Source: Betaproteobacteria bacterium
GTDB lineage: Bacteria; Pseudomonadota; Gammaproteobacteria; Burkholderiales; Casimicrobiaceae
DNA length: 64,000 nucleotides
Reading direction: 5' to 3'
Assembly: GCA_029884335.1 (NCBI GenBank)
Contig: JAOUIA010000002.1
Span: 34,474-98,473, forward strand
Positions 1 to 29,400 of the stretch are shown in pieces (the stretch's first letter is position 1; the number at the start of each line of letters is the position of its first letter). Both the position numbers and the translations under genes were made by a program. The notes below the pieces were generated by a model. The model saw nothing but the letters and a program-made list of their open reading frames with translations. It was not told where the DNA came from and did no database searches.

Positions 1-628
1 TGTACTTCTTGTGCCGCCGGCTGCCGGCGAACAGCGTCTCCGCGAGCGGCGCCTGGCGCCGGAACGCCTCGAGATCGGGGACGCAATTCACGTGCTCGGC
101 GACCGCAAAGTAGTCGTTCGACTGCAGCGCGAGGAGCTGCCCGCGGGGAATCCTGCCGTACCAGGACGCGAAGTCGGGCAGGTGCTCGCAGGCGGTGTTG
201 ACGACGAGGTCGGGGGCCGTGCCGGGGCGCGGATCCGGATACGGGTAGTCGAGCATGTCCGCGGTGACCGCGGAGAAGCGCTGGCCGTGGCTCGCGTTCA
301 TCGACCGGGCGACTGCGGCGCAGCGCGGGTCGATGTCGACGCTGACCACGCTGTCGATCGCGAGCCGCCGGTCGGCGAGCAGGATGGCGGCGAGCACGCC
401 GAACCACCCGCCGAGGACGGTGACGGTGCCGAAGCGCCCGCCGCCGGCGCCGGCCAGCGCGTCGGCCAGCCACAGCTTCGAGGTGATCTGGTTGCGGTTG
501 AGCGCGCCCCCGAGGTCCGGCTCCGCGAAGCGCGACGCGGTGGCCAGGACGTCGGCCACGAACGGGCTCGCGAAGTAGACGGCGAGGCCTTCGAGGATGT
601 CGCGGTAGCGTTCTTCGGCGTCGTGCAT
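1..628 (-). CDS. Class I SAM-dependent methyltransferase (partial; runs off the left edge)
   Basis: Not in the ORF track; translated by hand from ATG 628: MHDAEERYRDILEG...NQITSKLWL...VTVLGGWFG...VSVDIDP...VVNTACEHL...LQSNDYF...EHVNC...KKY. Has a Gly-rich SAM motif and the acidic DID motif. Confidence 0.8.
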   Translation of the reverse strand, partial: MHDAEERYRDILEGLAVYFASPFVADVLATASRFAEPDLGGALNRNQITSKLWLADALAGAGGGRFGTVTVLGGWFGVLAAILLADRRLAIDSVVSVDIDPRCAAVARSMNASHGQRFSAVTADMLDYPYPDPRPGTAPDLVVNTACEHLPDFASWYGRIPRGQLLALQSNDYFAVAEHVNCVPDLEAFRRQAPLAETLFAGSRRHKKY

Positions 629-783
629 CGGGCGGCGGCCCGGGGGCGAGGCCCGCGCAGCATAGCAGGCGCCCCGCATGACCGGGCCGCTTTCGCCGGT
701 CCCGCGCTTGCCGTATCCTGTGGCGCGTGGCCGGCGTGCCCCGGGTGGGGGCGCCGCTCGCCCATCCCATGGGATCGCCGGCA

Positions 784-1266
784 ATGAATGTCGACGACGA
801 AGCTGCGGTTCTCTCGCGCGTGCCGACGTTCGCCAAGTGCGACCCGGCGCGGCTCAAGCTGCTCGCGTTCACGAGCCGCGCGCTGCGCTTCGCGCCCGGC
901 GAGGTCATCATTCGTGCCGGCGAGCCCTCCGACAGCACGCTGCTGATCCTCGAGGGCACCGTCGAGTTCGTCGGCGAGACCACCGGCGGCGAATTCATCA
1001 TCAACACCGCCGGCGCGCACCAGATGATCGGCGAGATGGGCGTGATCATGAACGTGCCGCGCACGCTGATGGTCCGCGCGCGCGACGACGTCCGCGTGCT
1101 GCGCATCTCCGCGCAGGTGTTCCTGAAGCTCCTGTCCGAGAACCCCGAGGTGGCGCTGGACATGATGCGCACGCTGTGCGAGCGGCTGCACGCCACCACG
1201 CAGCGCCTGACGAAGACGCAGGCCGCGCTGGTCGACGCCGGCGCTGCGGCTCGCGGCACTCCCTGA
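784..1266 (+). CDS. Stand-alone cyclic nucleotide-binding (cNMP/Crp N-terminal-like) protein
   Basis: LSRVPTFA, GEVIIRAGE, ILEGTVE, IGEMGVI..PRTLMVRA phosphate-binding cassette; no HTH. Start re-called to ATG 784. Confidence 0.88.
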   Translation: MNVDDEAAVLSRVPTFAKCDPARLKLLAFTSRALRFAPGEVIIRAGEPSDSTLLILEGTVEFVGETTGGEFIINTAGAHQMIGEMGVIMNVPRTLMVRARDDVRVLRISAQVFLKLLSENPEVALDMMRTLCERLHATTQRLTKTQAALVDAGAAARGTP

Positions 1267-1270
1267 CCGG

Positions 1271-1954
1271 ATGCAGCCCGACGCGCCGGCCGGTCACCCG
1301 GGGAGGTTGAGGCGCGCCAACGCCGAGCGGTTCGCCGCAGCCTGGGAGCGCAACCACGCGGGGCCCGCCGCGCGGCCTGCGGCGCCGGTGTTCGGCGAGA
1401 TCGCCGCGCACTACGGTGCGCCCGAGCGCACCTACCACACGCTGGGCCACGTCGACGACTGCCTCGCACGGCTGGACGCCGTCGCCGCGCTGGTCGGGGA
1501 CCGCAACGCGATCGAGATCGCCATCTGGTTCCACGACGTCATCTGCGACTCGGGCGCGCCTGACAACGAGGCGCGCAGCGCGCGCTGGTACCTCGAGCGC
1601 TCGGCGGGCGCGGCACCGCGCTTCCGGCTCGCCGTGTGCCGGATGATCCTCGCTTCGCGGCACGCCGAGCCGGCGGTCCGGCTCGACGCCCGCTACATGG
1701 TGGACATCGACCTCGCCGGCTTCGGCCACCCGTGGCTCGAGTTCCGCCGCACGACCGATCTCGTGCGCGGCGAGTTCCCGCACAAGTCCGACGCCGAGTT
1801 CGCGCGCGGGCTGGCGCCGTTCATGCGCTCGCTGGTGGCGCGCGAATCGCTCTACGCGACCGACTTCTTCCGCGAGCGCTGCGAGGCGACCGCGCGCCGC
1901 AACGTCGCCCAGCTCATCGCCGAGTGGCGCGACGCGGGCTACCTGGAGCGGTGA
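1271..1954 (+). CDS. HD-superfamily predicted metal-dependent phosphohydrolase (COG4339-like)
   Basis: RTYHTLGH, IWFHD, DNEARSA, ILASRH and DIDL motifs. Confidence 0.8.
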   Translation: MQPDAPAGHPGRLRRANAERFAAAWERNHAGPAARPAAPVFGEIAAHYGAPERTYHTLGHVDDCLARLDAVAALVGDRNAIEIAIWFHDVICDSGAPDNEARSARWYLERSAGAAPRFRLAVCRMILASRHAEPAVRLDARYMVDIDLAGFGHPWLEFRRTTDLVRGEFPHKSDAEFARGLAPFMRSLVARESLYATDFFRERCEATARRNVAQLIAEWRDAGYLER

Positions 1955-2052
1955 GCCGGTAGTTCGCCTCGCAAACCGGCCGGTTTGCCCCCGGGCATTG
2001 TTGCCCCGGCGCGGCCGGGTTGCGATGGCGCGCGGAACCAGGCGCACGTCCT

Positions 2053-2136
2053 GGTGCCCCGTACCGGAAGTCCCTCGCGCGAGCGGAGGCGGTTGCTGCG
2101 CTGCGATAGGGCAAGGAACTCCCGGTGCGGGACACT
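2053..2136. mobile_element. Short (84 bp) internally deleted copy of the MITE at 44568-44758
   Basis: Degenerate inverted ends ggtgccccgtaccggaagt / gcaaggaactcccggtgcgggacact; the last ~60 bp nearly match 44699-44758. Confidence 0.75.
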
Positions 2137-3487
2137 AGCGGCCCGCTGCCCCTGACCCCAGCGCGTAGACGGGCGTGGGCCGGCTGCGCCCGCGCAACTG
2201 CACCTCGCCGATGGCGTCGAACGCGAAGTCCGCGGGTCCGGCCGCGGCCCGCGTGGCCTCGGAGACGATGATCCGCGTGCCGTACGTCTTGTTGAGCGCC
2301 TCCAGGCGCGCGGCCAGGTTCACCTCGTCGCCGATCACCGTGTAGAGCAGGCGGTCGGGGGTCCCCAGCAGCCCGCACACCATCGGGCCGGTGTTGACGC
2401 CGATGCGCACGGCCAGCCGCGCGCCGGGGCCGAACGCGCGCGAGCCGGTCAGCGCGAGGATGTCGAGCGCGGCCTCGACCGCGGCGGCGGCGTGGCGGGG
2501 ACAGGGGCGCGGCGCGTTGAACGTGGCCACGACCGCGTCGCCGAGGAACTGGTTGATCACGCCGTCACGCGCGGCGATCAGCGGCGCGGCGGCGGCGTAG
2601 AAGTCGTTCAGCGTGCCGACCACGTCCTCGGGCGGCATCTTCTCGCTCATCGCAGTGAAGCCCTCGATGTCGAGGAAGAGCACGGTGGCCTCGGTCGTCC
2701 GGCCCTCGCCGGCGGCGAACGACGTCTCGGCCGTGCGCGCGAGCTCGGCGACCTCGCTCGGAACGAAGCGCGCGAGCTCGCGGTTGCTCGCCGTCTCCAC
2801 GGCGGCGTACTCGACGAGCCGCGCTGTGCGCCGGCTCGCCAGCGCCAGCACGCCGGCGAACATCAGGATCGCGAGCACCTTGTCGACCTCCGCGCCGATC
2901 AGCACGCTGTTCGACGTGAGGTAGGCGACGTAGTCGCGCGTGATCATCGGGTCCGCCGGGTCGACCCTGACCACGTACACGACCAGCGCGACCCAGCCCA
3001 GCGCCGCGGCGATCCCCGCGGTGGCGATGTAGCGCGCCTCGAAGTTGAACGCGCGCAGCGCGATGAGCACGAACACCCACATCAGCGTGGGCGACTTGAG
3101 CGAGAACGACGCGGGCTGCGCGTACTGGATGTGGTAGCTGAAGATCAGCCCGATCAGCAGCGCGATGTCGACGGCGATCGACAGGTAGACGACGCCGCGC
3201 GTGAGCCGGCGCGTCCAGGCCAGCGCGAGACGGAGCAGCGTGAACGCGCCGTAGGCGCCCAGCACCCAGGGCACGGGAGCGAACGGGGCGTCGGCGCCGA
3301 ACTTCTTCGGGGCGAGCCCGTAGAGGACCGCGAGGCCCGCGATGAACGCGAGCTGCAGCACGCCGACCAGGATCTCGGCGCGCTCCTCCTCGGCGCGGAC
3401 GTGCTCGCGCACGCGCTGCGGCAGCCGCGGCGCCGTGGTGGCGAAAATCTGCAGAGGGTGGACGCGCCGGGGGAGGATTGGGGGCAT
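2135..3487 (-). CDS. Membrane-bound class III adenylate/guanylate cyclase
   Basis: About 6 hydrophobic segments, then FLDIEGFT, NQFLGD, RIGVNTG and YTVIGDEVNLAARLE. Start re-called to ATG 3487 (MPPILPRR). Confidence 0.9.
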   Translation of the reverse strand: MPPILPRRVHPLQIFATTAPRLPQRVREHVRAEEERAEILVGVLQLAFIAGLAVLYGLAPKKFGADAPFAPVPWVLGAYGAFTLLRLALAWTRRLTRGVVYLSIAVDIALLIGLIFSYHIQYAQPASFSLKSPTLMWVFVLIALRAFNFEARYIATAGIAAALGWVALVVYVVRVDPADPMITRDYVAYLTSNSVLIGAEVDKVLAILMFAGVLALASRRTARLVEYAAVETASNRELARFVPSEVAELARTAETSFAAGEGRTTEATVLFLDIEGFTAMSEKMPPEDVVGTLNDFYAAAAPLIAARDGVINQFLGDAVVATFNAPRPCPRHAAAAVEAALDILALTGSRAFGPGARLAVRIGVNTGPMVCGLLGTPDRLLYTVIGDEVNLAARLEALNKTYGTRIIVSEATRAAAGPADFAFDAIGEVQLRGRSRPTPVYALGSGAAGR

Positions 3488-3570
3488 GGCGGTTCCTTCA
3501 CGGGACGCCCGCCGGCGCGCGGCCGATCGGCGCCCCTGCGCTGATTGCGTCGGAGTTGCCGGGTCCGACC

Positions 3571-4164
3571 TTACGCCGTGCCGGCGGCGAGCGCGACGTT
3601 CCACGCGCGCACCCGCAGCCCCGCGCCGGCGTCGACGTCGAAGAGGTGGAGGGTGCCCGGACGCAGCTTGACGGGCGAGCGCCCGATCGCGTTCCAGCCG
3701 GTCAGGTGCGCGACGAGGACGTTCAGCACGCCCTTGTGCGTGACGGCCACGACCGGTCCCGGCCGGACGGCGATGCGGCCGATCCAGCGCAGCACGCGTT
3801 GCTGCGCTTCGCGCATGCTCTCGCCGCGCGGTGGGCGAAAGTCCAGGCCTCGAGCCTCGGCGGCGGCAAACGCCTCGGCGTGATGCTCGCGCAGGCTCGC
3901 GAAAGTCTCGCCTTCCCACGCTCCCCAGTCCATCTCGATCAGGTCCGGCGCGATCGCCGGCTCGCGGCCGGCGACGATGCGCGCGGTTTCGACCGCGCGG
4001 GCAAGGGGGCTGGACACGAGTTCGGCCGCCGCGAACTCGGGCGGCAGCCGCCAGGCGGCGACTTGCTCGCGGCCGGCGGGCGACAGCGCGACGTCTGCGC
4101 GGCCCTGCAGTCGCCGCGCCTCGTTCCACGGCGTCGCGCCGTGGCGCAGCAGCGCGACGATCAA
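3571..4164 (-). CDS. Histidine phosphatase (phosphoglycerate mutase family)
   Basis: LLRHG, SSPLARA, EMDWGAWEG, PPRGES and VTHKG motifs. TTG start overlaps the upstream TGA (TTGA). Confidence 0.88.
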   Translation of the reverse strand: MIVALLRHGATPWNEARRLQGRADVALSPAGREQVAAWRLPPEFAAAELVSSPLARAVETARIVAGREPAIAPDLIEMDWGAWEGETFASLREHHAEAFAAAEARGLDFRPPRGESMREAQQRVLRWIGRIAVRPGPVVAVTHKGVLNVLVAHLTGWNAIGRSPVKLRPGTLHLFDVDAGAGLRVRAWNVALAAGTA

Positions 4165-5306
4165 GGCGAGCTCCGGCGCGATGCGAGCACCCGCGCGAAC
4201 AGCGCGTCGAGCGCAGCCGCAGCGGAAGCGACGTCGTGACGCTCCCGCGCGTTTTGCGCCGCCGCCTCCCCCAACGCGCGCCGTCGCGCGGGGTCGTCGA
4301 GCAGCGCGCCGACCGCGTCGGCAAACGCCGTCGCATCGCCCGCCTCCACGAGCACGCCCGTAGCGCCGTCGACGATCATCGCCGAGCTGCCCGGCCGGCG
4401 TCCCGCGACCACCGGAACCCCGCACGCCTGCGCCTCGAGCATCGCGAGCCCCAGGACCTCGGCGACCGCCGGCCAGACGAACAGGTCGGCCGTGCGCAGC
4501 AGCGCGGCGACGGCGTGCGAAGGCTGCAATCCGACGAAGCGCACCCGCCGCGCAGGGAACGACGCGAACGCGGCTTCCACTTCGGCGCGTGCCGCGCCGT
4601 CGCCGACCACGACGAGGTGCCAGGACCGCTCGCCCAGCCGCGCGAGCGCGGTCGCCAGCAGCCGATAGCTCGCGAGCTTGTCGCCGGGCCGCATCATCGC
4701 GACGGTGGCAAGCCGCGGCCCGTCGGCTGTACCCGCAAGACCCTCCGCGAGCGCGGCAGCCTCGCGGCCCGCGGCGACGAAGCGCGCGACGTCGATGAAC
4801 GGCGGCAACGCGACGAGCGGCGTGGAAGGGTCGCGGATCGCGTCGACCATCGCCGCGTCCGCGGGGTTGATGCACACGACCGCGTCGGCCGCGCGAATCG
4901 CGGTTTCGACGGCCCCGTGGCCGCCGGCCCACCGGCCGCCCGCCTGCTTCGGGGCGAACGAGGCCTCCGCGACGACGTACGGAATGCGCAGCGCCTGGCT
5001 CACGATCGGCCCGATCGCGTCGGGCGCCTTGTGATACAGGTGGTACGTGAACCACAGCTGCGGCGCGCGCGACGGCTCGCGCTGCCAGCGCCGGATCAGC
5101 CGCAGCGCGAGTCCGGCGCCGACTGTCGCGAGGCGCGCCTGCCGCTTCGCGTCGCCGCGGCCTTCGAACGCCCGCAGCCGCGAGGCGACTTCGACTTCGT
5201 GCCCGGCCGCGCGCAGCGCGTCGACGAAGAGCCGCGCAAGCAGCCGGTCGCCCGAGGGCACCGGGTGGTCGGGCGGCTTGAGCGGCGCGTAGAACGCGAT
5301 GCGCAT
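4161..5306 (-). CDS. Glycosyltransferase family 4
   Basis: MRIAFYAPLKPPDHP N-terminus; DLFVWPAVAEVLGLAMLEAQACGVPVV GT-B motif. Confidence 0.9.
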   Translation of the reverse strand: MRIAFYAPLKPPDHPVPSGDRLLARLFVDALRAAGHEVEVASRLRAFEGRGDAKRQARLATVGAGLALRLIRRWQREPSRAPQLWFTYHLYHKAPDAIGPIVSQALRIPYVVAEASFAPKQAGGRWAGGHGAVETAIRAADAVVCINPADAAMVDAIRDPSTPLVALPPFIDVARFVAAGREAAALAEGLAGTADGPRLATVAMMRPGDKLASYRLLATALARLGERSWHLVVVGDGAARAEVEAAFASFPARRVRFVGLQPSHAVAALLRTADLFVWPAVAEVLGLAMLEAQACGVPVVAGRRPGSSAMIVDGATGVLVEAGDATAFADAVGALLDDPARRRALGEAAAQNARERHDVASAAAALDALFARVLASRRSSP

Positions 5307-5354
5307 CGGCTAGCGGCGTTCCACCGGGCGGGGGGCGTCGAGCTCTCCCGCCTT

Positions 5355-5459
5355 GTCATTCCCGCGCAGGCGGGAATCCGGCGTCTTTGCGACGCAACGA
5401 CGCCGGGTCCCCGCCCCCCGACCGCAATCCCCGGGGGCAGGCTGCGCGGAGACGACGAC
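5355..5459. repeat. CGTC-type REP inverted doublet; right unit carries a 27-bp insertion
   Basis: gtcattcccgcgcaggcgggaatcc ... gggtccccgcc[27 bp]tgcgcggagacgac; same family as at 26556, 45599 and 51361. Confidence 0.75.
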
Positions 5460-5494
5460 AGCGAGTCCGTGAACGGCCGGATTCCGCCGGACGT

Positions 5495-6760
5495 TCACCG
5501 GGCAACACCGGCGAGCAACCCGGCGTGGAAACGCTCGACCAGCCGGTCGATGCCGCGCTCGACGTCGAACGCGGTTCGCGTCCGCTCGCAACCCGCGTCG
5601 CCGAGCCGCTGCCTCAGCGCCGGGTCCGCGATCAGCGCGGCCAGCGCGCCGGCGAGCGCGTCGACGTCGCGCGGCTGCACCAGCAGGCCGGTGCGACCGT
5701 CCTCGATCAGCTCGGGGATGCCGGAGACCGCCGTCGCGACGCAGGGCAGCCGCTGGCTTTGCGCCTCCATCAGCACGTTGGGCAGCCCGTCGCGGTCGCC
5801 GTCGGCGGCGATGCGCGAGGGAAGCGCGAACACGTCCGCTGCGCGATAGCGCGCGAGCACCAGCGGCTGCGCCAGTGGACCGTGCCAGACGACGCGCTGC
5901 GCGATGCGAAGCGCAGCGGCCTGTGCCCTGAGCGCCGGCAGGAGCGGCCCGCCGCCGACGTGCTCGAAGCGCCAGTCGAGCGCTGCCGGCAGCCGCGCGA
6001 GCGCGGCCAGGAGGTCGTCGAAGCCCTTCTTCTCCACCGCGCGCCCCACGGACAGCACCACCACGGGGGCGCCCGCGCGGCGCGCCGGGGGCGGCGACGG
6101 AAAGCGCCGCGCGTCGAGCCCGTGGTAGACGAGCTCGACGCGCGCGGGATCCGCGGCCAGCGAGCGCAGGTGCTCGGCGTTCGCGCGCGTGCACGTCGCT
6201 GCCCAGGCGCAGGAGGCGAGCTTCTCGCGCTTCTCCCAATCCGGCGTGGTCCAGATGTCCTTCGCGTGCGCCGAGACGCTCCAGGGCAGCCCGCGCATCA
6301 GCGCCGCGTAGCGCGCGACCGAGGCGGGGGTGTGCAGGAAGTGCGCGTGCAGGTGGCCGATGTCCGCGGGCAGCTCGGCGGCGAGCACGAGCGCCTGGCC
6401 GAAACGGCGCACCCGGTTGCGCGTGCGGTCGCGGGCGAAGTCGGCGCGGAAGGCGGCGAGCGCCGTCCCGTAGCCGGGCAGGCGCCGGGCCGAGGCCCAC
6501 GCCCGCAGCACGCGGCCGGGCGCTTCGTGCAGGTACTCGGGAAGGTAGTCGACCGGCGCGGCGATCTCGTCGTGCACCGGGTGCGCCGAGGCGTCGGTGG
6601 GTCGCCGCAGCGAGTACAGCGCGAGGACGAGGCCCCTGCGCTCCAGCGCGGCCAGCTCCTGCGCGACGAAGGTCTCCGACAGCCGCGGGTAGCCCTTCAG
6701 CACGACGCCGATGCGCGGCGTCCGCGCGGCGCGAACATTCCCTCGGGAAGCGTCGTTCAT
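5495..6760 (-). CDS. Glycosyltransferase family 4
   Basis: VLKGYPRLSETFV, HLHAHFLHTP, VGRAVEKKG and DRDGLPNVLMEA motifs. Start re-called to ATG 6760. Confidence 0.9.
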   Translation of the reverse strand: MNDASRGNVRAARTPRIGVVLKGYPRLSETFVAQELAALERRGLVLALYSLRRPTDASAHPVHDEIAAPVDYLPEYLHEAPGRVLRAWASARRLPGYGTALAAFRADFARDRTRNRVRRFGQALVLAAELPADIGHLHAHFLHTPASVARYAALMRGLPWSVSAHAKDIWTTPDWEKREKLASCAWAATCTRANAEHLRSLAADPARVELVYHGLDARRFPSPPPARRAGAPVVVLSVGRAVEKKGFDDLLAALARLPAALDWRFEHVGGGPLLPALRAQAAALRIAQRVVWHGPLAQPLVLARYRAADVFALPSRIAADGDRDGLPNVLMEAQSQRLPCVATAVSGIPELIEDGRTGLLVQPRDVDALAGALAALIADPALRQRLGDAGCERTRTAFDVERGIDRLVERFHAGLLAGVAR

Positions 6761-6847
6761 CGGGGTGCCGATGGTAGCATTGCGCGACGGGCGCCAATGC
6801 CCTGATCGCGGGCGCCGCTCGCGGTCGGCCGCGGAGGGGACGTCGGG

Positions 6848-9463: not shown

Positions 9464-9484
9464 CTTTCGCCGCCGCGAGGCCGG

Positions 9485-10657
9485 CTACCGGTACGGATCC
9501 GCAGCGTCGCGCAGGCCGTCGCCGAAGAAGTTGAACGCCAGGATGATGACGATCACCGGCACCACCGGCAGCATGAGCCACGGGTAGAGCGCGACGACGT
9601 TGACGTTCTGCGCCTCGTTGAGCAGCACGCCCCAGCTGGTGATGGGCGGACGCAGCCCGATGCCGAGGAACGAGAGCGCCGTCTCGCCGAGGATCATGCC
9701 GGGGATCGACAGCGTCGCCGCGGCGATCAGGTGGCTCATGAATCCGGGCAGCAGGTGGCGCGCGATGATGCGCTTCGGCTTCGCGCCCATCAGGCGCGCC
9801 GCCGTCGTGTAGTCCTCCTCGCGCAGCGCGAGCAGCTTCGAGCGCACGGCGCGCGCGAGGTTCGTCCAGTGCAGCGTCGCGAGGATCATCGTGATGCCGA
9901 AGTAGATGAGCAGCGGGCTCCACGTGACCGGCAGCACCGCGGAGAGCGCCATCCACAGCGGCAGCTCGGGGAAGCTGCGGATCACCTCGATGACGCGCTG
10001 GATGAGGTTGTCGATCCAGCCGCCGTAGTAGCCGGCGATGCCGCCGAACACCAGGCCCAGCGTGAAGGCGAGCGCGATGCCGAGCAGCCCGATCGTGAGC
10101 GAGATGCGCGTGCCGTAGATCACGCGCGAGAGCACGTCGCGGCCGAGACGGTCGGTGCCGGCGAGGAACAGCGTGCCGCCCTCCGCGGGGCACGCGAGGT
10201 GCAGCGAGGCCTCGAACATCCCCCAGAACCTGTAGCTGTCGCCGCTGCAGAAGAAGCGCAGCGGGTACGGCTTCGAGGTGTCCTCCGTGTACTCGCGCCT
10301 CAGCGTCTCCATGTTGAGCGAGCGCACGAGGTCGTAGGTGAACGGGCCGACGAACTTCCCCTCGTGGAAGAAGCGCACCTGCTGCGGCGGCGCGTAGATG
10401 TAGTCGGTGTGGCGGCTGTGCAGGTAGTAGGGCGCCAGCACCTCGGAGACGAGCGTGGTGGCGTACATGAGCGCGAGGACGATCCCCGAGATCACCGCGA
10501 CCTTGTGGCGCCTGAGCTTCCACAGCATCAGCTTCCACTGGGAGGCGAGGTAGAACTTCTCCTGCTCCGCGGTGAGCGCGTCGCTGCCCGAGGGGTCGAA
10601 CGGCTCCTGGCTGACGAAGTGCGGCAGCGGGTCGGCGGCGGCGGCGGTCGCGTTCAT
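9485..10657 (-). CDS. ABC transporter permease (DppC/OppC type)
   Basis: GTDRLGRDVLSRVIYGTRISL; AARLMGA EAA loop; ETALSFLGIG. Confidence 0.92.
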   Translation of the reverse strand: MNATAAAADPLPHFVSQEPFDPSGSDALTAEQEKFYLASQWKLMLWKLRRHKVAVISGIVLALMYATTLVSEVLAPYYLHSRHTDYIYAPPQQVRFFHEGKFVGPFTYDLVRSLNMETLRREYTEDTSKPYPLRFFCSGDSYRFWGMFEASLHLACPAEGGTLFLAGTDRLGRDVLSRVIYGTRISLTIGLLGIALAFTLGLVFGGIAGYYGGWIDNLIQRVIEVIRSFPELPLWMALSAVLPVTWSPLLIYFGITMILATLHWTNLARAVRSKLLALREEDYTTAARLMGAKPKRIIARHLLPGFMSHLIAAATLSIPGMILGETALSFLGIGLRPPITSWGVLLNEAQNVNVVALYPWLMLPVVPVIVIILAFNFFGDGLRDAADPYR

Positions 10658-10666
10658 CGTCCCGTC

Positions 10667-11665
10667 CTACCTGGAGACGCCGCCCTCGAGGCGGATCCGC
10701 GGGTCGAGCGCGGCCAGCGCGAGGTCGGAGATCAGCACGCCGATCACGATCATGATCGCGAGGAACATCAGGAACGAGCCGGCGAGGTACATGTCCTGGC
10801 TCTTGAGCGCGGCGAGCAGCATCGGGCCGGTGGTGGGCAGTGACAGCACGACCGCCGTGATCTCCGCGCCCGAGATCACCTCCGGCAGCAGGCTGCCGAT
10901 GTCGGAGATGAAGAAGTTGAGCGAGAGCCGCAGCGGGTACTTGCGCAGCAGCCTGCCCGGCGGCAGGCCCTTCGCGCGGCCGGTCACCACGTACTGCTTC
11001 TGCAGCTCGTCGAGGAGGTTCGCGCGCATCTTCCGGATCATGCCGGCCGTGCCGCCGGTGCCGATCACGACCACCGGGATCCAGATGTGGTCGAGCACCG
11101 ACTTGAACTTCTCCCAGCTCCACGGCTTGTCGATGTACTCGGGGTCCATCAGGCCGCCGATCGACAGGCCGAACCAGACGTTGGCGAAGTACATCATCAC
11201 CAGCGCCAGCATGAAGTTCGGGATCGCGATGCCGAGGAAGCCGAGGAACGTGAGGCCGTAGTCGCCCCAGCTGTACTGGTGGGTGGCCGAGTACACGCCG
11301 ATCGGGAAGGCGATCGCCCAGGTGAACAGGATGGTGACGAACGACACCAGCACCGTCAGCAGCAGGCGGTCGCCGATCACCTGCGACACCGGCAGGTTGA
11401 ACTCGAACGAGTAGCCGAAGTCGCCGACGAACCAGCCGCCGATCCAGCGCAGGTACTGCTCCCACATCGGCTGGTCGAGGCCGTAGTGCTCGCGCAGGAA
11501 CGCGATCTTCTGCGGGTCGACGCTCTCGCCGGCCGCCTGCAGCTCGGCGATGTAGCTCTCGAGGTAGTCGCCGGGAGGCAGCTGGATGATGACGAAGACG
11601 ATGATGCTGATCGCGATCAGCGTCGGGATCATCAGCAGCAGGCGGCGGGCGATGTACCTCAGCAT
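10667..11665 (-). CDS. ABC transporter permease (DppB/OppB type)
   Basis: MLRYIARRLL, GDFGYS, YVVTGRAKGL and ISGAEIT motifs. Confidence 0.92.
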   Translation of the reverse strand: MLRYIARRLLLMIPTLIAISIIVFVIIQLPPGDYLESYIAELQAAGESVDPQKIAFLREHYGLDQPMWEQYLRWIGGWFVGDFGYSFEFNLPVSQVIGDRLLLTVLVSFVTILFTWAIAFPIGVYSATHQYSWGDYGLTFLGFLGIAIPNFMLALVMMYFANVWFGLSIGGLMDPEYIDKPWSWEKFKSVLDHIWIPVVVIGTGGTAGMIRKMRANLLDELQKQYVVTGRAKGLPPGRLLRKYPLRLSLNFFISDIGSLLPEVISGAEITAVVLSLPTTGPMLLAALKSQDMYLAGSFLMFLAIMIVIGVLISDLALAALDPRIRLEGGVSR

Positions 11666-11666
11666 T

Positions 11667-13577
11667 TCAGTTCGTCCCGCGGTCGATCCAGAACGTGTCG
11701 GGCCGGTGGATGCCGAAATAGGCGCCCGGATCCCAGTTGTACAGGCCCTTCGCCGGCACGTTGCGCATCGCGCGGCTCACCACCACCGGCTGCAGGTTGC
11801 CCGTCACCGTGCCGATGATGAACTGCTGCTCGGCGTGGATCGACAGCATGCGCTTCCAGATCTTCGTGCGCTCCGCGGAGTCGGGCGCCTTCTGCCAGCC
11901 TTCGTAGAGCGCGAGCAGCTCCTTCGCCTCGGGGATGTCCGGCGGCGAGCCGCCCTTGCCGCGGCTCTCCACGTGGTTGCCCCACATCGGCCACTGCAGC
12001 TGCTCCTGCTTCACCGGCGCGAGCGCCTCGGGGCTCATGTCGGCGGTGGCGAGCCCGTTGTCGAGCCCGGACCACACCGACATCATCGACTGCCCGGAGA
12101 ACACGCGCTTGCGGAAGATCTCGCGCTGCGACGGCCGCGAGTAGAGCGCGATGCCGACCTGCCGCCAGCTGTCGCGGATGAGCTCGAGCACGTCGGTCTC
12201 CTCGGTGCTCTCGCCGGCGGTGTCGACGACGATCTCGAGCGGCCGCCCGTCGGGCAGCAGCCGCAGGCCGTTCGCGTCGCGCGTGGTGAGGCCGATCTCG
12301 TCGAGCAGCGCGTTCGCCGCCTTGAGGTCGTAGCGCGTCCACGCCGCGCGGAACGCGGGCTCGTACAGCGGGCTTGCCGGCAGCACGGTGTTGTTCGACG
12401 GCTGCACGAGCCCGAAGAAGACCACCTGGTTGATCTCGTGCCGGTTGACGGCCAGCGAGAGCGCGCGGCGGAAGCGCACGTCGCGCATCAGCTTGCGCCA
12501 CGCCGGGTCCTCGACGTTGAGGTTCGGATGCAGCGCGATCTGCGAGCCCTTCACGGTGTCCCACAGGCGCACCTCGTACCCGCTGCGCTTCTCGTTCTTC
12601 TTGAGGAACGTGTAGTCGTCGAAGCGCAGGTAGCGCGCCTGGAGGTCGGCCTCGCCGGCGCCGGTCTTCGCCGGCACCAGCTTCTCGTCGGCGATGCCCA
12701 TCACGACGCGGTCGATGTAGGGCAGCTGGCGGCCCGAGGGGTCGACGCGGTGGAAGTACGGGTTGCGGTGGAAGACGAAGCGCGTGGCCGGCGGCGCCGT
12801 CATGTTGACCCAGGGCTCCAGCGTGGGGAGGTCGGGGTTGTCGAAGCGGTACTGCTCGTCCTTCTTGTGGTGCAGGCCCGCCCAGTTGCGCGCCTTGGCC
12901 TTCGCGGCTTGCGCCTTCGCCTCCTCCTCGCCGAGGTAACGCGCGTGGAACTTCCTGAGGTAGTGCGCGGGGCGATAGAGGAACAGCGGCGAGGGCCCGG
13001 CGATCGCCGGAAGGAACAGCGGATTGGGGCTCTCCCAGACGTAGCGGACGGTCAGCGGGTCCGGAAAGCTGACCTTCGGCCCCTTGCCGTCGGCGAGCAG
13101 CGCCTGCGGCAGGCCGATCGGCGAGAGCGCCTTGTTGTTGGCCACGTCCTCCCAGTAGTAGCGGAAGTCCTCGGAGGTGAACGGGTGGCCGTCGGACCAG
13201 CGGTGCCCCGGGCGCAGCCGGAACGTGAACTCGCGGTCGCCGGCGTTCTCGAAGCTCTCGACGATGTCGGGGACGAACTGCAGCTTGAGGTCGTAGGCGA
13301 CGAGCCGCGCGTAGCCGAACACGACCATCATGCGGATGTCGCGGTCGCGCGCCATCACCATGCGCATGTCGCCGCCGTAGCGGCCGCTCTCGCGCTTCAT
13401 CTCGCCGAGCGGGACGACGAGCGGCTTCTCCGGCAGGCGCTGCGCCATCGGCGGCAGCTTGCCCGCCGCCACCGCCTCCTTGAGCATCGGCGGTTCCTCG
13501 TTCGCCGACGCGAGCGGCGCGAACGCGAGGGCCGCGAACGCGAGCGCGGCGCAGAGGGCGCGTTGCGGCCGCCTCAT
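11667..13577 (-). CDS. ABC transporter substrate-binding protein, family 5
   Basis: Signal peptide; LPPMAQRLP, WSDGHPFTSEDF, NPYFHRVD..GRQLPYID and RFRRALSLAVNR motifs. ATG overlaps the ATPase stop (ATGA). Confidence 0.92.
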   Translation of the reverse strand: MRRPQRALCAALAFAALAFAPLASANEEPPMLKEAVAAGKLPPMAQRLPEKPLVVPLGEMKRESGRYGGDMRMVMARDRDIRMMVVFGYARLVAYDLKLQFVPDIVESFENAGDREFTFRLRPGHRWSDGHPFTSEDFRYYWEDVANNKALSPIGLPQALLADGKGPKVSFPDPLTVRYVWESPNPLFLPAIAGPSPLFLYRPAHYLRKFHARYLGEEEAKAQAAKAKARNWAGLHHKKDEQYRFDNPDLPTLEPWVNMTAPPATRFVFHRNPYFHRVDPSGRQLPYIDRVVMGIADEKLVPAKTGAGEADLQARYLRFDDYTFLKKNEKRSGYEVRLWDTVKGSQIALHPNLNVEDPAWRKLMRDVRFRRALSLAVNRHEINQVVFFGLVQPSNNTVLPASPLYEPAFRAAWTRYDLKAANALLDEIGLTTRDANGLRLLPDGRPLEIVVDTAGESTEETDVLELIRDSWRQVGIALYSRPSQREIFRKRVFSGQSMMSVWSGLDNGLATADMSPEALAPVKQEQLQWPMWGNHVESRGKGGSPPDIPEAKELLALYEGWQKAPDSAERTKIWKRMLSIHAEQQFIIGTVTGNLQPVVVSRAMRNVPAKGLYNWDPGAYFGIHRPDTFWIDRGTN

Positions 13578-15460
13578 GCCGTCACGCTCCGCGCGCGCAG
13601 GTCCGCGCCCACCTGCGCGCGCACGCGGTGCCCGCCGCCGAGGTCGTGCAGCACGCCGGCGTCGTCGCCCCGCCACGCGTAGGGCGCGCGCCACTCGGCC
13701 GGGTCGCGCGCGGCCCCCTCCATCACGGCGGCGAGGTCGAGCCGCCGCCCGAGGTCGGGGTAGGGCACTGCGGCAAGCAGGCCGCGCGTGTACGGATGCA
13801 GCGGCTCGCTGAACAGCACCTCGCGCGGCGCGATCTCGACGATGCGGCCCTTGCACATCACGGCGATCTCGTCGGCGAGGTAGTCGACCACCGCGAGGTT
13901 GTGCGAGATGAAGAGGTAGGTGAGCCCGAGCTCGGCCTTGAGGTCCTTGAGCAGGTTCATGATCTGCGCCTGGATCGAGACGTCCAGCGCGGAGACCGGC
14001 TCGTCGCACAGCAGCATGTCGGGCTTGAGCGCGAGCGCGCGGGCGATGCCGATGCGCTGGCGCTGGCCGCCGGAGAAGCTGTGCGGGTAGCGCGACAGGA
14101 AGCGCGGGTCGAGGCCGACCAGCCGCATCAGCTCCTTCACCATCTCCGCCTGGTAGTCGGCGTCGCCGACGCCGTGGATCACCAGCGGCTCGCGCAGGAT
14201 GTCGAACACGGTCATCCGCGGCGACAGCGAGCCCATCGGGTCCTGGAAGATGTACTGCACGCGGCGGCGGAAGCGCTGCAATTCCGCCTCGCCCGCCTGC
14301 GCGACGTCGAGCGGCTTCCCGCGGTCGTTGTACACGATGCGCCCGCGGTCGGGCGTGAGCGCGCGCATGATCATCTTGGAGAGCGTGGTCTTGCCGCAGC
14401 CGCTCTCGCCGACCAGCCCGAAGCACTCGCCGTGACGCACCTCGAAGCTCACGTCGGCCACTGCGCGGACCTTGTGCGTGCGGTGGCCGACCCACGCCGT
14501 GCTGCGCGTGGTGAACGTCTTGTCCACGCCCTCGACGGCGAGCTGCACCTGCGGCACGCCTTCCGGCCAGCCCTCGTAGGTGCGCAGCAACGGCCCCGTC
14601 TGGTGGTCGATCTCGCGCACCGGTTGCAGCCGCTCGCCCTCCTTCATGTCGAAGTGCGGCACCGCGCGCAGCAGCGCGCGCAGGTACGGGTGCCCGGGCG
14701 CCGTGTAGATGTCGCGCACCGGTCCCGCCTCCATCACGCGCCCGCGGTAGAGCACGACGACCTCGTCGGCGAGGTTCGCCACCACGCCGAGGTCGTGCGT
14801 GATCAGCAGCACCGCCATGTTGAGCCGTCCCTTCAGCTCGGCGAGCAGCTGGAGGATCTGCGCCTGGATGGTGACGTCGAGCGCGGTGGTCGGCTCGTCG
14901 GCGATCAGCAGCGACGGACGGCAGACGAGCGCCATCGCGATCATCGCGCGCTGCCGCAGGCCGCCCGACAGCTCGAACGGGTACATCTTCAGCGCCCGGG
15001 CCGGGTCGGGGAAGCCGACCAGGCGCAGCATCTCCTCGGTCTGGCGCAAGCCCTCGGCCTGGTCGACCTTGTGGTGCAGGAACAACCCCTCGCTCACCTG
15101 GTCGCCGACCGTGTGCACGGGCGAGAGCGAGAGCATGGGCTCCTGGAAGATCATCGACATGCGCCGGCCGCGCAGCGCGAGGTAGCCGGGGCCGTCCGGA
15201 TCGAGGCGGGCGAGGTCGATCGGCGCTTCGCCGGGCCTTTCGGCCGCAAGCAGCATGCTGCCGTTCGTGATTCGCGCGTTGTGCGGCAGGATGCCCATCA
15301 GCGCCTGCGCGGTCACCGACTTGCCCGAGCCGGACTCGCCCACGAGCGCGACCGTCGTGCCCGGCCGCACGCGGAAGGAGATGCGGTCGAGCGCCGGCAC
15401 GCGCATGCCGCGCACGTCGAATTCGAGCGACAGCTCGCGGACGTCGATCAGGTTGTTCAT
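13574..15460 (-). CDS. Fused dipeptide/oligopeptide ABC ATPase (DppD+DppF type)
   Basis: Two NBDs (GESGSGKS/LSGGLRQR and GESGCGKT/FSGGQRQR), each with an HPY C-terminal motif. Confidence 0.93.
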   Translation of the reverse strand: MNNLIDVRELSLEFDVRGMRVPALDRISFRVRPGTTVALVGESGSGKSVTAQALMGILPHNARITNGSMLLAAERPGEAPIDLARLDPDGPGYLALRGRRMSMIFQEPMLSLSPVHTVGDQVSEGLFLHHKVDQAEGLRQTEEMLRLVGFPDPARALKMYPFELSGGLRQRAMIAMALVCRPSLLIADEPTTALDVTIQAQILQLLAELKGRLNMAVLLITHDLGVVANLADEVVVLYRGRVMEAGPVRDIYTAPGHPYLRALLRAVPHFDMKEGERLQPVREIDHQTGPLLRTYEGWPEGVPQVQLAVEGVDKTFTTRSTAWVGHRTHKVRAVADVSFEVRHGECFGLVGESGCGKTTLSKMIMRALTPDRGRIVYNDRGKPLDVAQAGEAELQRFRRRVQYIFQDPMGSLSPRMTVFDILREPLVIHGVGDADYQAEMVKELMRLVGLDPRFLSRYPHSFSGGQRQRIGIARALALKPDMLLCDEPVSALDVSIQAQIMNLLKDLKAELGLTYLFISHNLAVVDYLADEIAVMCKGRIVEIAPREVLFSEPLHPYTRGLLAAVPYPDLGRRLDLAAVMEGAARDPAEWRAPYAWRGDDAGVLHDLGGGHRVRAQVGADLRARSVTA

Positions 15461-15551
15461 TCGTGGGAGCGCGCTGTTCCGCGAGGCGCCCCGCGGCGGA
15501 TCCGGCGTGCGGGACCCCCGCGACTCTAATCGGGCGGCCGGCTTTAGGGAA

Positions 15552-15581
15552 GGGGGCGGGCCGCGAAGAGGCCCCGCCCCC
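15552..15581. terminator. GC-rich hairpin, possible terminator or processing stem
   Basis: gggggcggg...cccgccccc stem in the intergenic space; no U-tract. Confidence 0.3.
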
Positions 15582-15602
15582 GACCTGTGGCCGCCCGGGG
15601 CG

Positions 15603-16577: not shown

Positions 16578-16717
16578 GGGCTTCGGCGCCTCGCAGGTGT
16601 GCGCGGGCAGGGGCGCGTTGGGCAACCTACCACTACGGCGACCCGTCCGCCACCGGAGTCCGGGAGTCGTTCCGCAGCGCTTGCCTCCCGCCTGTCCGAC
16701 GTGATACATATACCCAT

Positions 16718-16963
16718 ATGAAGACAACCGTAGAGATTCCCGACGCGTTGCTGGAGGAGGCCCGCAAGCTCGCCGCGCGGCAGGACTCGACGCTGCGGGT
16801 GCTGATCATCGAGGGCCTGCGGCGCGTCGTCGCCGAGCGCAAGCGCGCCGGCGGCTTCAGGCTCCGCAAGGCGAGCTTCCGCGGCAGCGGCCTCCAGCCG
16901 GACGTCGCCGACGCTCCATGGGAGCGCATCCGCGAGCTGGCCTACGACAAGCGCGGCGGATGA
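16718..16963 (+). CDS. vapB: VapB-like antitoxin (DUF2191-like, RHH-type N-terminus)
   Basis: MKTTVEIPDALLEEARK N-terminus; stop overlaps the PIN toxin start. Confidence 0.8.
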   Translation: MKTTVEIPDALLEEARKLAARQDSTLRVLIIEGLRRVVAERKRAGGFRLRKASFRGSGLQPDVADAPWERIRELAYDKRGG

Positions 16964-27346: not shown

Positions 27347-29364
<2,018 letters not shown>

Positions 29365-29400
29365 GTGAGGGGGCAACGTTACGCCAAACGGCCTCCGCTG

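What the first reader, a model, noticed from the sequence alone, without database searches (positions are those of the whole stretch)
1..15460. Uncharacterised cluster coupling cNMP signalling, glycosylation/dephosphorylation and ABC transport
Seen: about 12 tightly packed genes, with TTGA/ATGA overlaps. They encode a cNMP-binding protein, an HD hydrolase, a membrane cyclase, a His-phosphatase, two GT4 enzymes, a degenerate ABC exporter-like protein, a family-5 importer and a methyltransferase. Established: GT plus phosphatase pairs make sugar-phosphate intermediates in solute pathways such as sucrose-phosphate synthase/phosphatase. Inference: a cNMP-controlled pathway that imports or makes and exports a glycosylated small molecule. 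I recall similar clusters in Rhizobiales but know of no assigned function.
Basis: partly seen in the sequence, partly recalled or inferred. Interest (0 to 1): 0.68.

Follow-up and report, generated by a model that had tools for sequence, protein, structure and literature searches.

The report
cNMP-controlled glycan cluster with pseudo-ABC exporter
This is part of a widely conserved but unstudied proteobacterial gene cluster in which a cyclic-nucleotide signalling module is wired to four sugar-transferring enzymes, a crippled ABC "exporter" and an uptake system; it probably makes and releases an unknown sugar compound on command.

Summary
The organism is an uncultured Burkholderiales/Casimicrobiaceae betaproteobacterium, not a rhizobium.

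The cluster is cut by the window start. A near-identical contig shows two GT1/GT28-like glycosyltransferases and a DUF2334-like gene just upstream.

The same gene set recurs, in shuffled order, around the ABC homologue in alpha-, beta- and gammaproteobacteria. In Rhizobium leguminosarum and R. etli p42e it forms one co-directional array. It is also on Sinorhizobium meliloti pSymB.

New findings:
- The 871-aa ABC protein has a type IV exporter fold, but its ATPase motifs are degenerate across the family, and a family-specific ~300-aa helical insert splits its nucleotide-binding domain.
- In some relatives the small cNMP-binding protein is fused to the C-terminus of this ABC protein, so the two work together.
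- The unassigned gene is an HD-superfamily protein that folds like cyclic-nucleotide phosphodiesterases and travels with the cyclase.

Best reading: a cNMP-gated system for synthesis and export of a glycan or glycoconjugate, with a dedicated importer. I found no published function. The product and the transport mechanism remain inferred.

The parts
1..679 (-). g1: weak class I SAM methyltransferase-like gene. Its 3' end (about 9 codons) lies beyond the window start.
   Evidence: Methyltransf_25 E 1e-3. Full 235-aa gene called on sister contig L083. Conserved in betaproteobacterial loci, and 40% identical to a 'class I SAM-dependent methyltransferase' in the S. meliloti pSymB cluster.
784..1266 (+). 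g2: stand-alone cyclic-nucleotide-binding protein (160 aa, no DNA-binding domain). It is the receptor partner of the ABC protein.
   Evidence: PF00027 E 1e-18. Phosphate-binding cassette G83, E84 and R93 invariant in 70 homologues. Present in 42 of 47 full-flank loci and directly downstream of the ABC gene in 36 of 67. Fused to the ABC C-terminus in relatives.
1271..1954 (+). g3: HD-superfamily metal phosphohydrolase, candidate cNMP phosphodiesterase.
   Evidence: No Pfam, NCBIfam or PDB sequence hit. Invariant H56, H60, H88-D89, D145 and D147. AF2 model pLDDT 94. Best Foldseek hits are PDE5A, PDE1B, PDE10 and PDE4D catalytic domains, TMq 0.5-0.59. Almost always next to the cyclase.
2135..3487 (-). 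gA: membrane-anchored class III nucleotidyl cyclase (450 aa).
   Evidence: PF00211 E 2e-28. Metal Asp, Asn and Arg conserved. Base-specifying Lys is replaced by Gln and Asp by Thr across beta and gamma homologues.
3571..4164 (-). gB: histidine phosphatase (branch 1). Its TTG start overlaps the stop of gC.
   Evidence: PF00300 E 6e-44. TTGA overlap. Found in 34 of 47 full-flank loci, always next to gC, and absent from Rhizobiaceae.
4161..5306 (-). gC: GT4 glycosyltransferase (381 aa), accessory partner of the phosphatase.
   Evidence: PF00534 and PF13692. Nearest solved relatives are MshA, PimB', cyanobacterial sucrose-phosphate synthase and BshA. Found in 38 of 47 loci.
5495..6760 (-). gD: GT4 glycosyltransferase (421 aa), core member.
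   Evidence: PF13692 and PF00534; EpsE-like at 160 bits, below the 400-bit cut-off. Found in 42 of 47 loci. 56-59% identical in Rhizobium and Sinorhizobium.
6848..9463 (+). gE: ABC-exporter-fold protein (871 aa) with a degenerate, interrupted nucleotide-binding domain.
   Evidence: PF00664 plus PF00005 split into two stretches. AF2 model matches TmrAB, MsbA and ABCB1. Motif degeneracy across 80 homologues.
8201..9136 (+). Family-specific ~300-aa all-helical insert within the NBD of gE, between the Q-loop and the signature motif.
   Evidence: No Pfam or PDB sequence match. 783 representative proteins carry it; in the listed full-length proteins it sits at about 450-820, the rest being fragments.
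9485..10657 (-). gF: family-5 importer permease (OppC/DppC type).
   Evidence: NCBIfam Opp4C 260 bits, below cut-off. 64-92% identical across classes.
10667..11665 (-). gG: family-5 importer permease (OppB/DppB type).
   Evidence: Conserved neighbour.
11667..13577 (-). gH: large (636 aa) cluster C, family-5 substrate-binding protein with a signal peptide.
   Evidence: SBP_bac_5. Closest solved relatives are T. maritima OppA 5IPW (1e-90), the pectin-oligosaccharide binder SPH1118 (2e-80) and the alpha-galactoside binder (7e-32).
13574..15460 (-). gI: fused double ATPase of the importer. Its stop overlaps the gH start (ATGA).
   Evidence: GsiA-like at 573 bits, below the 1077-bit cut-off; two ABC_tran domains plus oligo_HPY.

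Best explanation
The window holds the right-hand two thirds of a conserved system of about 15 genes. The system most likely builds a glycan or glycoconjugate in the cytoplasm and passes it across the inner membrane under cyclic-nucleotide control.

Shown:
- A fixed gene set recurs together in alpha-, beta- and gammaproteobacteria.
- The ABC protein has an exporter fold, but its ATP site is degraded and interrupted.
- The small cNMP-binding protein is the split form of a domain that is fused to this ABC protein in other species.
- The cNMP-binding pocket residues are invariant.
- A membrane cyclase and an HD protein with a phosphodiesterase-like fold travel together with the receptor.

Inferred:
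- The cyclase makes the cNMP (base uncertain) in response to a membrane signal, and the HD protein removes it.
- The cNMP-loaded receptor docks on the ABC protein, possibly on its large helical insert, and switches it on or off.
- Two GT1/GT28-like and one or two GT4 transferases assemble the sugar compound. A translationally coupled GT4 and His-phosphatase pair may supply a dephosphorylated glycoside primer. A DUF2334-like putative deacetylase and lineage-specific methyltransferases trim it.
- The ABC-fold protein conducts or flips the product without classical ATP pumping.
- The large-cleft family-5 importer takes the product or its fragments back up.
For: Gene content.

Conservation:
- At least 522 species genomes encode a relative of the ABC protein.
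- Among 47 loci with full flanks: GT4d 42, cNMP protein 42, GT4c 38, GT28b 36, GT28a 34, phosphatase 34, DUF2334-like 32, importer ATPase 29. Gene order is shuffled between lineages.
- In R. leguminosarum and R. etli the genes form one co-directional array: cyclase, importer, three glycosyltransferases, ABC, cNMP protein.

Receptor and ABC link:
- The receptor lies directly downstream of the ABC gene in 36 of 67 loci.
- All 9 long family members scanned carry a C-terminal cNMP_binding domain.
- g2 aligns end to end with that fused domain, 34% identity, E 5e-30.
- Fused forms sit inside the full cluster in L063 and L076.

Signalling module:
- The binding cassette G-E...R is invariant in 70 sequences.
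- The cyclase keeps its catalytic residues.
- The HD protein's best fold matches are cNMP phosphodiesterases, and it co-occurs with the cyclase.

ABC protein and transport:
- The ABC site is degenerate.
- No priming phosphoglycosyl transferase, Wzx/Wzy, PCP or OPX gene was found among the conserved members.
- The binding protein is related to an oligosaccharide binder.
Against: - No product, ligand or activity has been measured for any member.
- The ABC-fold protein may not transport anything.
- CNB domains can bind other ligands. HetC's CNB domain binds ppGpp in vitro.
- The phosphodiesterase assignment rests on TM-scores of 0.5-0.59 within the broad HD fold, and PDE entries are over-represented in the PDB.
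- The cyclase and HD genes are near the cluster in only 13 of 47 full-flank loci.
- The organism has at least two other cyclases nearby, so cyclase adjacency alone is weak evidence.
- The importer could be a peptide transporter. Its best PDB match is an OppA.
- Neighbourhoods were seeded only from the ABC protein.
Confidence: 0.5

Rival explanations
1. Membrane glycolipid pathway. The glycosyltransferases decorate a lipid acceptor such as diacylglycerol, a phospholipid or a lipid A-like molecule. The MsbA-like protein flips or presents the glycolipid, with cNMP setting the rate.
For: NCBIfam's best match for gE is MsbA, well below the cut-off, and fold search matches MsbA among other type IV exporters. 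Solved relatives of both GT4 enzymes include the lipid-acting PimB' and PimA, and gD also matches an LPS galactosyltransferase. GT28-like enzymes include MurG. No polyprenyl-phosphate priming enzyme is present.
Against: This reading gives no role to a dedicated binding-protein importer. A soluble His-phosphatase coupled to a GT4 points to a soluble phosphorylated acceptor. No acyltransferase or lipid-synthesis gene is among the conserved members. The flippase would lack a working ATPase.
Confidence: 0.15
2. Import, modify, re-export. The family-5 system imports an external peptide or oligosaccharide. The transferases, deacetylase and methyltransferase modify it, and the ABC-fold protein releases the modified compound.
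For: In Rhizobium the importer genes sit in the same co-directional array, upstream of the glycosyltransferases. GT1/MGT-like enzymes often glycosylate small molecules. The binding protein has a large cleft.
Against: Four transferases plus a primer-type GT4 and phosphatase pair look more like de novo assembly. S. meliloti adds a polysaccharide lyase and a nucleotide-sugar dehydrogenase, which suits turnover of a self-made polymer. There is no direct evidence either way.
Confidence: 0.15
3. The ABC-fold protein is a regulator or sensor rather than a conduit, as SUR is in K-ATP channels. It would convey cNMP status to the importer or to the glycosyltransferases, and the product would stay inside the cell or leave by another route.
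For: Rhizobiaceae members lack the Walker A lysine and the catalytic glutamate. A large family-specific insert and a fused ligand-binding domain, sometimes with a GGDEF domain as well, are typical of signalling proteins.
Against: The six-helix exporter domain is well conserved, with many invariant membrane-domain residues. That argues for a conserved membrane function. The pairing of transferases with an exporter fold is the classical arrangement for secretion.
Confidence: 0.15
4. Cyclic-nucleotide anti-phage defence (Pycsar-like), or a chance juxtaposition of unrelated genes.
For: Domain-level PADLOC hits of the cyclase to PycC and of g2 to the CNB part of Pycsar effectors. A weak GT4-conflict Pfam hit.
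Against: There is no TIR or membrane-disrupting effector. The hits reflect shared domains only. The cluster is stable across three classes with a largely class-consistent tree and sits among housekeeping genes. Chance adjacency is excluded by the recurrence.
Confidence: 0.03

Closest known systems
HetC of Nostoc PCC 7120 (ABC exporter carrying a cyclic-nucleotide-binding-type domain; PMC10986499)
   Same: An ABCB-type exporter whose function depends on an attached CNB-type ligand-binding domain.
   Different: In HetC the CNB domain is N-terminal, beside a C39 peptidase. Its ATPase is canonical and essential. The ligand found in vitro was ppGpp, not cAMP. The presumed cargo is a peptide. Here the CNB is C-terminal or a separate protein, the ATPase is degenerate, the NBD carries a 300-aa insert, and the neighbours are glycosyltransferases.
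MsbA/ABCB-type (type IV) half-transporters that move glycans or glycolipids (MsbA, PglK, NdvA/ChvA, HepA)
   Same: Six-helix ABC_membrane domain followed by one NBD, presumably a homodimer. The fold matches TmrAB, MsbA and ABCB1. Genetic linkage to glycosyltransferases.
   Different: All NCBIfam scores are far below the cut-offs, for example MsbA 178 against 602. Walker A Ser/Thr, the LSGGQ signature and the H-loop His are lost. Walker B Asp is often Asn. The NBD is interrupted by a family-specific insert.
Second-messenger-gated polysaccharide secretion (c-di-GMP with BcsA-PilZ, Alg44, PelD; own knowledge)
   Same: The logic is shared: a nucleotide second messenger binds a receptor domain attached to, or associated with, the membrane export or synthesis machine and controls glycan output after translation.
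   Different: The messenger would be a cyclic mononucleotide made by a class III cyclase. The receptor is a CNB domain and the membrane component is an ABC fold rather than a GT2 synthase. Nothing here has been tested experimentally.
GT-plus-phosphatase primer pairs: MshA and its phosphatase, sucrose-phosphate synthase/phosphatase, GpgS/GpgP (own knowledge for the pathways)
   Same: gC is a GT4 whose nearest solved relatives include MshA and a sucrose-phosphate synthase. It is translationally coupled to a phosphatase. GpgP is also a histidine phosphatase (own knowledge).
   Different: No equivalog threshold is met: sucrose-phosphate synthase domain 40 bits against 576, MshA 76 against 462. The phosphatase is not HAD-type. 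The pair is missing from the Rhizobiaceae clusters.
SPH1118 pectin-binding protein of Sphingomonas sp. A1 and T. maritima OppA (5IPW)
   Same: gH is a cluster C binding protein of about 69 kDa, related to both (E 2e-80 and 1e-90). SPH1118 was annotated as an oligopeptide binder but binds unsaturated trigalacturonate, not peptides.
   Different: The ligand of gH is unknown, and I did not check whether the ligand-contacting residues are conserved.
CFTR and SUR (ABC-fold proteins that gate or regulate rather than pump; own knowledge)
   Same: ABC exporter fold with degenerate ATP sites and an added regulatory element that responds, in CFTR indirectly, to cAMP.
   Different: These are eukaryotic full-length ABCC proteins, where cAMP acts through kinase phosphorylation. 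This is an analogy of logic only, not homology beyond the ABC fold.

Membership tests
Type IV (ABCB/MsbA-like) ABC exporter | Six-helix ABC_membrane transmembrane domain with an exporter fold | tested here: met
   PF00664 77 bits. Foldseek matches to TmrAB, MsbA, Atm1 and ABCB1, TMt about 0.6.
Type IV (ABCB/MsbA-like) ABC exporter | Canonical ATPase motifs: Walker A GxxGxGK[ST], signature LSGGQ, Walker B hhhhDE, H-loop His | tested here: not met
   Window sequence: GAGECGKGE, LAYQQ, ILVLDE, LGQ. Across the 80-sequence alignment: Ser/Thr after the Walker A Lys in 5 of 80; Walker B Asp replaced by Asn in 49 of 80; H-loop His in 12 of 80. The Rhizobium and Sinorhizobium proteins lack the Walker A Lys and the catalytic Glu.
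Type IV (ABCB/MsbA-like) ABC exporter | Contiguous NBD of about 200-250 residues | tested here: not met
   PF00005 matches in two stretches separated by a helical insert of about 300 residues, 452-763.
Class III adenylate/guanylate cyclase | Cyclase homology domain with two metal-binding Asp and the transition-state Asn and Arg | tested here: met
   PF00211 100 bits. FLDIEGFT, GDA, VNLAARLE conserved.
Class III adenylate/guanylate cyclase | Base-specifying pair Lys/Asp (ATP) or Glu/Cys-type (GTP) | tested here: not met
   Gln and Thr at those positions in beta and gamma homologues; Ser/Ser in Rhizobium. The product nucleotide cannot be called.
CAP-family cyclic-nucleotide-binding domain | Phosphate-binding cassette with Gly-Glu and Arg-[Thr/Ser] | tested here: met
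   G83, E84 and R93 invariant, and T/S94 in 61 of 70 homologues.
CRP/FNR transcription factors | C-terminal helix-turn-helix DNA-binding domain | tested here: not met
   g2 is 160 aa with only the CNB domain. CRP scores 57 bits against a cut-off of 266 and covers only the N-terminal part of the profile.
HD-superfamily phosphohydrolase / class I cNMP phosphodiesterase | H...HD...D metal-binding motif | tested here: met
   H56, H60, H88-D89, D145 and D147 invariant.
HD-superfamily phosphohydrolase / class I cNMP phosphodiesterase | PDE catalytic-domain fold and cNMP hydrolysis | tested here: inconclusive
   Top Foldseek hits are PDE5A, PDE1B, PDE10 and PDE4D, but TMq is 0.5-0.59 and E is 7e-3 or weaker. 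YpgQ also matches. Activity is not testable here.
Sucrose-phosphate synthase/phosphatase-type solute pathway | SPS-type GT4 equivalog plus a HAD-type sucrose-phosphate phosphatase | tested here: not met
   TIGR02472 scores 40 bits against a cut-off of 576. The phosphatase belongs to the His_Phos_1 family.
Family-5 (Opp/Dpp/Nik/Gsi) binding-protein-dependent importer | SBP_bac_5 protein, two BPD_transp_1 permeases, ATPase(s) with an oligo_HPY tail | tested here: met
   No equivalog cut-off is reached for any specific substrate class.
Wzx/Wzy-dependent or ABC-2 (KpsMT/Wzm-Wzt) polysaccharide pathways | Priming phosphoglycosyl transferase, flippase/polymerase or ABC-2 pair, PCP and OPX proteins | tested here: not met
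   None among the window genes, the upstream genes or the conserved neighbours.
Pycsar anti-phage system | Pyrimidine cyclase plus a CNB-linked TIR or membrane effector | tested here: not met
   Only domain-level hits to PycC and to the CNB part of effectors, with no effector domain present.

The most novel reading that the evidence does not exclude
The ABC-fold protein is a bacterial pseudo-transporter: a cyclic-nucleotide-gated conduit. It would resemble CFTR in logic, but with a direct cNMP receptor domain. It would release a small, tailored (deacetylated or methylated) oligosaccharide without ATP hydrolysis. The dedicated large-cleft importer would re-capture that oligosaccharide. Together these would form a self-made glycan signalling or recycling loop shared by rhizobia, sponge symbionts and soil betaproteobacteria.
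Probability: 0.15. Interest if true: 0.9.

Novelty: new variant of a known kind. Interest (0 to 1): 0.7.

Why it matters
Post-translational control of glycan secretion by nucleotide messengers is well established for c-di-GMP. It has not been described for cyclic mononucleotides.

Bacteria such as Sinorhizobium carry dozens of class III cyclases whose outputs are mostly unknown. This cluster offers a concrete, conserved output for one of them. It comprises a receptor that is genetically, and in some species physically, tied to an ABC-fold membrane protein whose ATP site has decayed, together with a full set of biosynthetic and uptake genes.

The cluster is present in genetically tractable model rhizobia (S. 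meliloti pSymB, R. etli p42e, R. leguminosarum), so every step can be tested directly. It could reveal a new surface or secreted glycan relevant to symbiosis, and a new way of using the ABC fold.

Tried and rejected
- All-against-all clustering of stop-to-stop ORFs from the 80 loci chained neighbouring and antisense frames in this high-GC DNA and could not be used directly. I replaced it with masking of known genes and best-hit assignment.
- Sequence searches of g3 against Pfam, NCBIfam and the PDB, including a 21-sequence profile, found nothing. Only the fold comparison was informative.
- The DUF2334-like protein has no solved relative by sequence, and its Pfam hit is far below threshold. Its deacetylase role is therefore a guess.
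- The NBD insert has no Pfam or PDB sequence match. Whole-model fold search only recovered ABC exporters.
- Literature searches by domain combination, by guessed S. meliloti and R. etli locus tags, and by CNB-ABC fusion found no paper on this cluster. The Clr regulon paper concerns a different pSymB polysaccharide cluster.
- The S. meliloti 1021 and 2011 records in the plasmid collection carry no gene table for this region, so I could not recover the classical SMb locus tags.
- I tested for a compensatory charge swap between Walker A and Walker B. No clean covariation was found.
- The defence-system reading was rejected.
- Rfam found no riboswitch or other RNA family in 1-17000.


Full report
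**1. What is in the window**

The DNA is about 72% G+C, so raw ORF lists are full of shadow frames. A third-position GC frame plot leaves one consistent gene in each stretch. Pfam and NCBIfam name them.

| Gene | Coordinates | Identity |
|---|---|---|
| g1 | <1-679 (-) | weak class I methyltransferase, cut by the window edge |
| g2 | 784-1266 (+) | 160-aa protein that is only a cyclic-nucleotide-binding (CNB) domain |
| g3 | 1271-1954 (+) | no family hit |
| gA | 2135-3487 (-) | membrane class III cyclase |
| gB | 3571-4164 (-) | histidine phosphatase |
| gC | 4161-5306 (-) | GT4 glycosyltransferase |
| gD | 5495-6760 (-) | GT4 glycosyltransferase |
| gE | 6848-9463 (+) | 871-aa ABC_membrane + ABC_tran protein |
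| gF, gG | 9485-10657 (-), 10667-11665 (-) | importer permeases |
| gH | 11667-13577 (-) | SBP_bac_5 binding protein |
| gI | 13574-15460 (-) | fused double ATPase |

These genes cover about 96% of the 15.46 kb. The TTGA overlap (gB over gC) and the ATGA overlap (gH over gI) are real.

The next gene, 15603-16571, is an ABC_sub_bind protein and is not conserved with the rest. Beyond it lie a PIN toxin pair, another cyclase and housekeeping genes.

**2. Where it comes from, and the true extent**

The ABC protein's closest relatives (79-89% identity) come from Casimicrobiaceae and Burkholderiales metagenome-assembled genomes.

A public contig encoding the identical ABC protein (L083) continues 3.1 kb to the left of the window. 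It shows two GT1/GT28-like glycosyltransferases and a 257-aa DUF2334-like protein before g1. The transferases give Glyco_tran_28_C hits plus weak MGT, MurG and MJ1255 matches. The DUF2334 match itself is far below threshold. The finding's left boundary is therefore an artefact of the window.

**3. Is it one unit?**

A genome scan seeded with the ABC family found relatives in at least 522 species genomes. I took the best 80 loci with up to 10 kb of flank and placed the window's proteins and the three upstream proteins on them. Counts among the 47 loci with full flanks:

| Component | Loci with it (of 47) |
|---|---|
| GT4d (gD) | 42 |
| CNB protein (g2) | 42 |
| GT4c (gC) | 38 |
| GT28b | 36 |
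| GT28a | 34 |
| His-phosphatase (gB) | 34 |
| DUF2334-like | 32 |
| Importer ATPase (gI) | 29 (limited by flank length) |
| Cyclase (gA) | 13 |
| g3 | 13 |

Gene order differs between lineages while the set stays the same. Betaproteobacteria have the window's order. Many Rhodospirillales have SBP-ATPase-DUF-28b-HP-GT4c-GT4d-28a divergent from ABC-CNB. Some gammaproteobacteria have ABC-CNB-g3-cyclase-28a-GT4d-GT4c-HP-28b-DUF. Persistence of the set through rearrangement is strong evidence for a functional unit.

Full-length homologues of gE (37-41% identity) occur on 258 plasmid records, mostly Rhizobium and Sinorhizobium.
- In R. leguminosarum WSM1325 and R. etli CFN42 p42e the genes form one co-directional array: cyclase, importer ATPase, SBP, two permeases, GT28a, GT4d, GT28b, ABC, CNB protein.
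- S. meliloti pSymB adds a polysaccharide lyase and two methyltransferases.
- A nucleotide-sugar dehydrogenase gene lies just upstream of the cyclase in all three records.
- These versions lack gC and gB, so the GT4 and phosphatase pair is an accessory module, not the core.

**4. The ABC protein**

Sequence and fold place gE with type IV exporters such as ABCB1, TmrAB, MsbA and BmrA. Three features set the family apart.

(a) The ATP-site motifs are degenerate throughout the family.
- Walker A is GxxxxG[K/R][D/E][D/E], without the Mg-binding Ser/Thr.
- The signature is LS[Y/A/S][S/A]Q.
- The Walker B Asp is Asn in 49 of 80 sequences.
- The H-loop His is present in only 12 of 80.
- The Rhizobium and Sinorhizobium proteins lack both the Walker A Lys and the catalytic Glu.
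- Only one such gene is present, so a homodimer would have two crippled sites. ATP-driven pumping cannot be assumed.

(b) About 300 residues (452-763), predicted to be all-helical with good confidence, are inserted between the Q-loop and the signature motif.
- The insert has no Pfam or PDB sequence relative.
- A search of 1.84 billion representative proteins found it in 783 proteins; among the listed full-length ones it sits at about 450-820, the rest being fragments.

(c) Eighteen of the 150 best hits are 1010-1206 aa long.
- All nine that I scanned carry a C-terminal cNMP_binding domain after the NBD, and two carry a further GGDEF domain.
- g2 aligns end to end with this fused domain, 34% identity, E 5e-30.
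- The fused form occurs inside complete clusters in L063 and L076.
- In 36 of 67 loci g2 lies immediately downstream of the ABC gene.
- This gene fusion shows that g2 and gE act together.

**5. The signalling module**

*Receptor.* The phosphate-binding cassette of g2 (G-E...P-R-[T/S]-A) is invariant in 70 homologues. g2 has no DNA-binding domain, so it is not a CRP-type regulator, despite that annotation in S. meliloti.

*Cyclase.* The cyclase keeps its metal-binding and transition-state residues, but the base-specifying Lys/Asp pair is replaced by Gln/Thr. The product nucleotide cannot be predicted.

*g3.* It has invariant H, HD and D residues. Its relatives are named HD-superfamily phosphohydrolases by JGI. 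Its model is confident (pLDDT 94). The best structural matches are catalytic domains of cyclic-nucleotide phosphodiesterases, but at modest TM-scores and within a fold shared by other HD enzymes. In the neighbourhoods g3 almost always sits between g2 and the cyclase.

I read this as a synthesis, degradation and receptor triad. The phosphodiesterase role is inferred.

**6. The enzymes and the importer**

- Both GT4 proteins fall below every NCBIfam equivalog cut-off.
- gC's nearest solved relatives include MshA and a sucrose-phosphate synthase, which use phosphorylated acceptors, as well as PimB' and BshA.
- No priming phosphoglycosyl transferase, Wzx/Wzy, ABC-2 pair, PCP or OPX gene belongs to the conserved set. 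This is not a classical capsule or exopolysaccharide pathway.
- The binding protein gH is a large cluster C protein. Its closest solved relatives are T. maritima OppA and SPH1118. SPH1118 was annotated as an oligopeptide binder but binds pectin oligosaccharides and not peptides.
- An oligosaccharide ligand is therefore at least as likely as a peptide.

**7. Interpretation**

The best-supported model is a cyclic-nucleotide-gated system that assembles a glycan or glycoconjugate and passes it through, or presents it with, an ABC-fold membrane protein that has lost classical ATPase chemistry. A dedicated importer would retrieve the product or its fragments.

Rival readings are:
- a glycolipid pathway;
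- import, modification and re-export of an outside compound;
- a purely regulatory ABC-fold protein;
- a defence system, which is very unlikely. PADLOC hits are only domain-level and no effector is present.

A rough neighbour-joining tree puts the betaproteobacterial proteins in one clade beside gammaproteobacterial groups and apart from the alphaproteobacterial ones. The region's composition matches the rest of the window. There is therefore no sign of recent alphaproteobacterial origin.

**8. Novelty and limits**

Eight full-text searches found no study of this cluster. The library covers only open-access papers and preprints, so a publication cannot be excluded.

The nearest studied case is HetC, an ABC exporter with an N-terminal CNB-type domain. 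It has a working ATPase and binds ppGpp in vitro. That case is also a warning that CNB domains need not bind cNMP.

All components belong to known families. The combination, the degenerate and interrupted NBD, and the CNB coupling are new. I rate it a new variant of a known kind (second-messenger-controlled glycan export), of considerable interest because it can be tested directly in model rhizobia.

Noticed in passing
window 10657-10667, compared with L083 13810-13930: The sister contig that encodes the identical ABC protein has about 110 extra bases between the two permease genes, and its flanking bases differ. The two assemblies are therefore not the same strain, or one of them carries a small insertion or repeat there.
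   Followed up: partly
window 17410-20601 (-) and 30831-32549 (+): Two more class III cyclases lie close by. One is a 1063-aa Zn-ribbon/cyclase/AAA_16/TPR protein, which also follows the importer in the related genome L081. The other is a 2Fe-2S ferredoxin-domain cyclase. The organism appears rich in cNMP signalling.
   Followed up: partly
window about 16718-17394 (+): A small antitoxin-like ORF plus a PIN-domain toxin gene sit between the non-conserved ABC_sub_bind gene and the large cyclase. L081 has no such pair at that position, so this looks like a local insertion.
   Followed up: no
window 5369-5415 (gC-gD intergenic region, 5307-5494): A 23-nt-arm, G+C-rich inverted repeat (87% complementary, 1-nt loop) lies in the 188-nt gap between the two GT4 genes. 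A second 12-nt hairpin lies at 5469-5498. They could be a repeat element or an internal attenuator or terminator.
   Followed up: no
L063 10001-13618 and L076 10001-13504; proteins P0250, P0325: Some fused ABC-CNB proteins carry a further C-terminal GGDEF domain. In those species this would link the system to c-di-GMP as well.
   Followed up: partly
loci L031, L036, L040, L045, L046, L055, L066, L071, L077 in the tree: One group of gammaproteobacterial ABC proteins nests inside the alphaproteobacterial clade. This suggests at least one inter-class transfer of the cluster. The tree is neighbour-joining without support values.
   Followed up: no
window 29261-29371 (-) and 32564-32634 (+): A TPP riboswitch lies upstream of thiC, and there is a tRNA gene. 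Both are ordinary and unrelated to the cluster.
   Followed up: no
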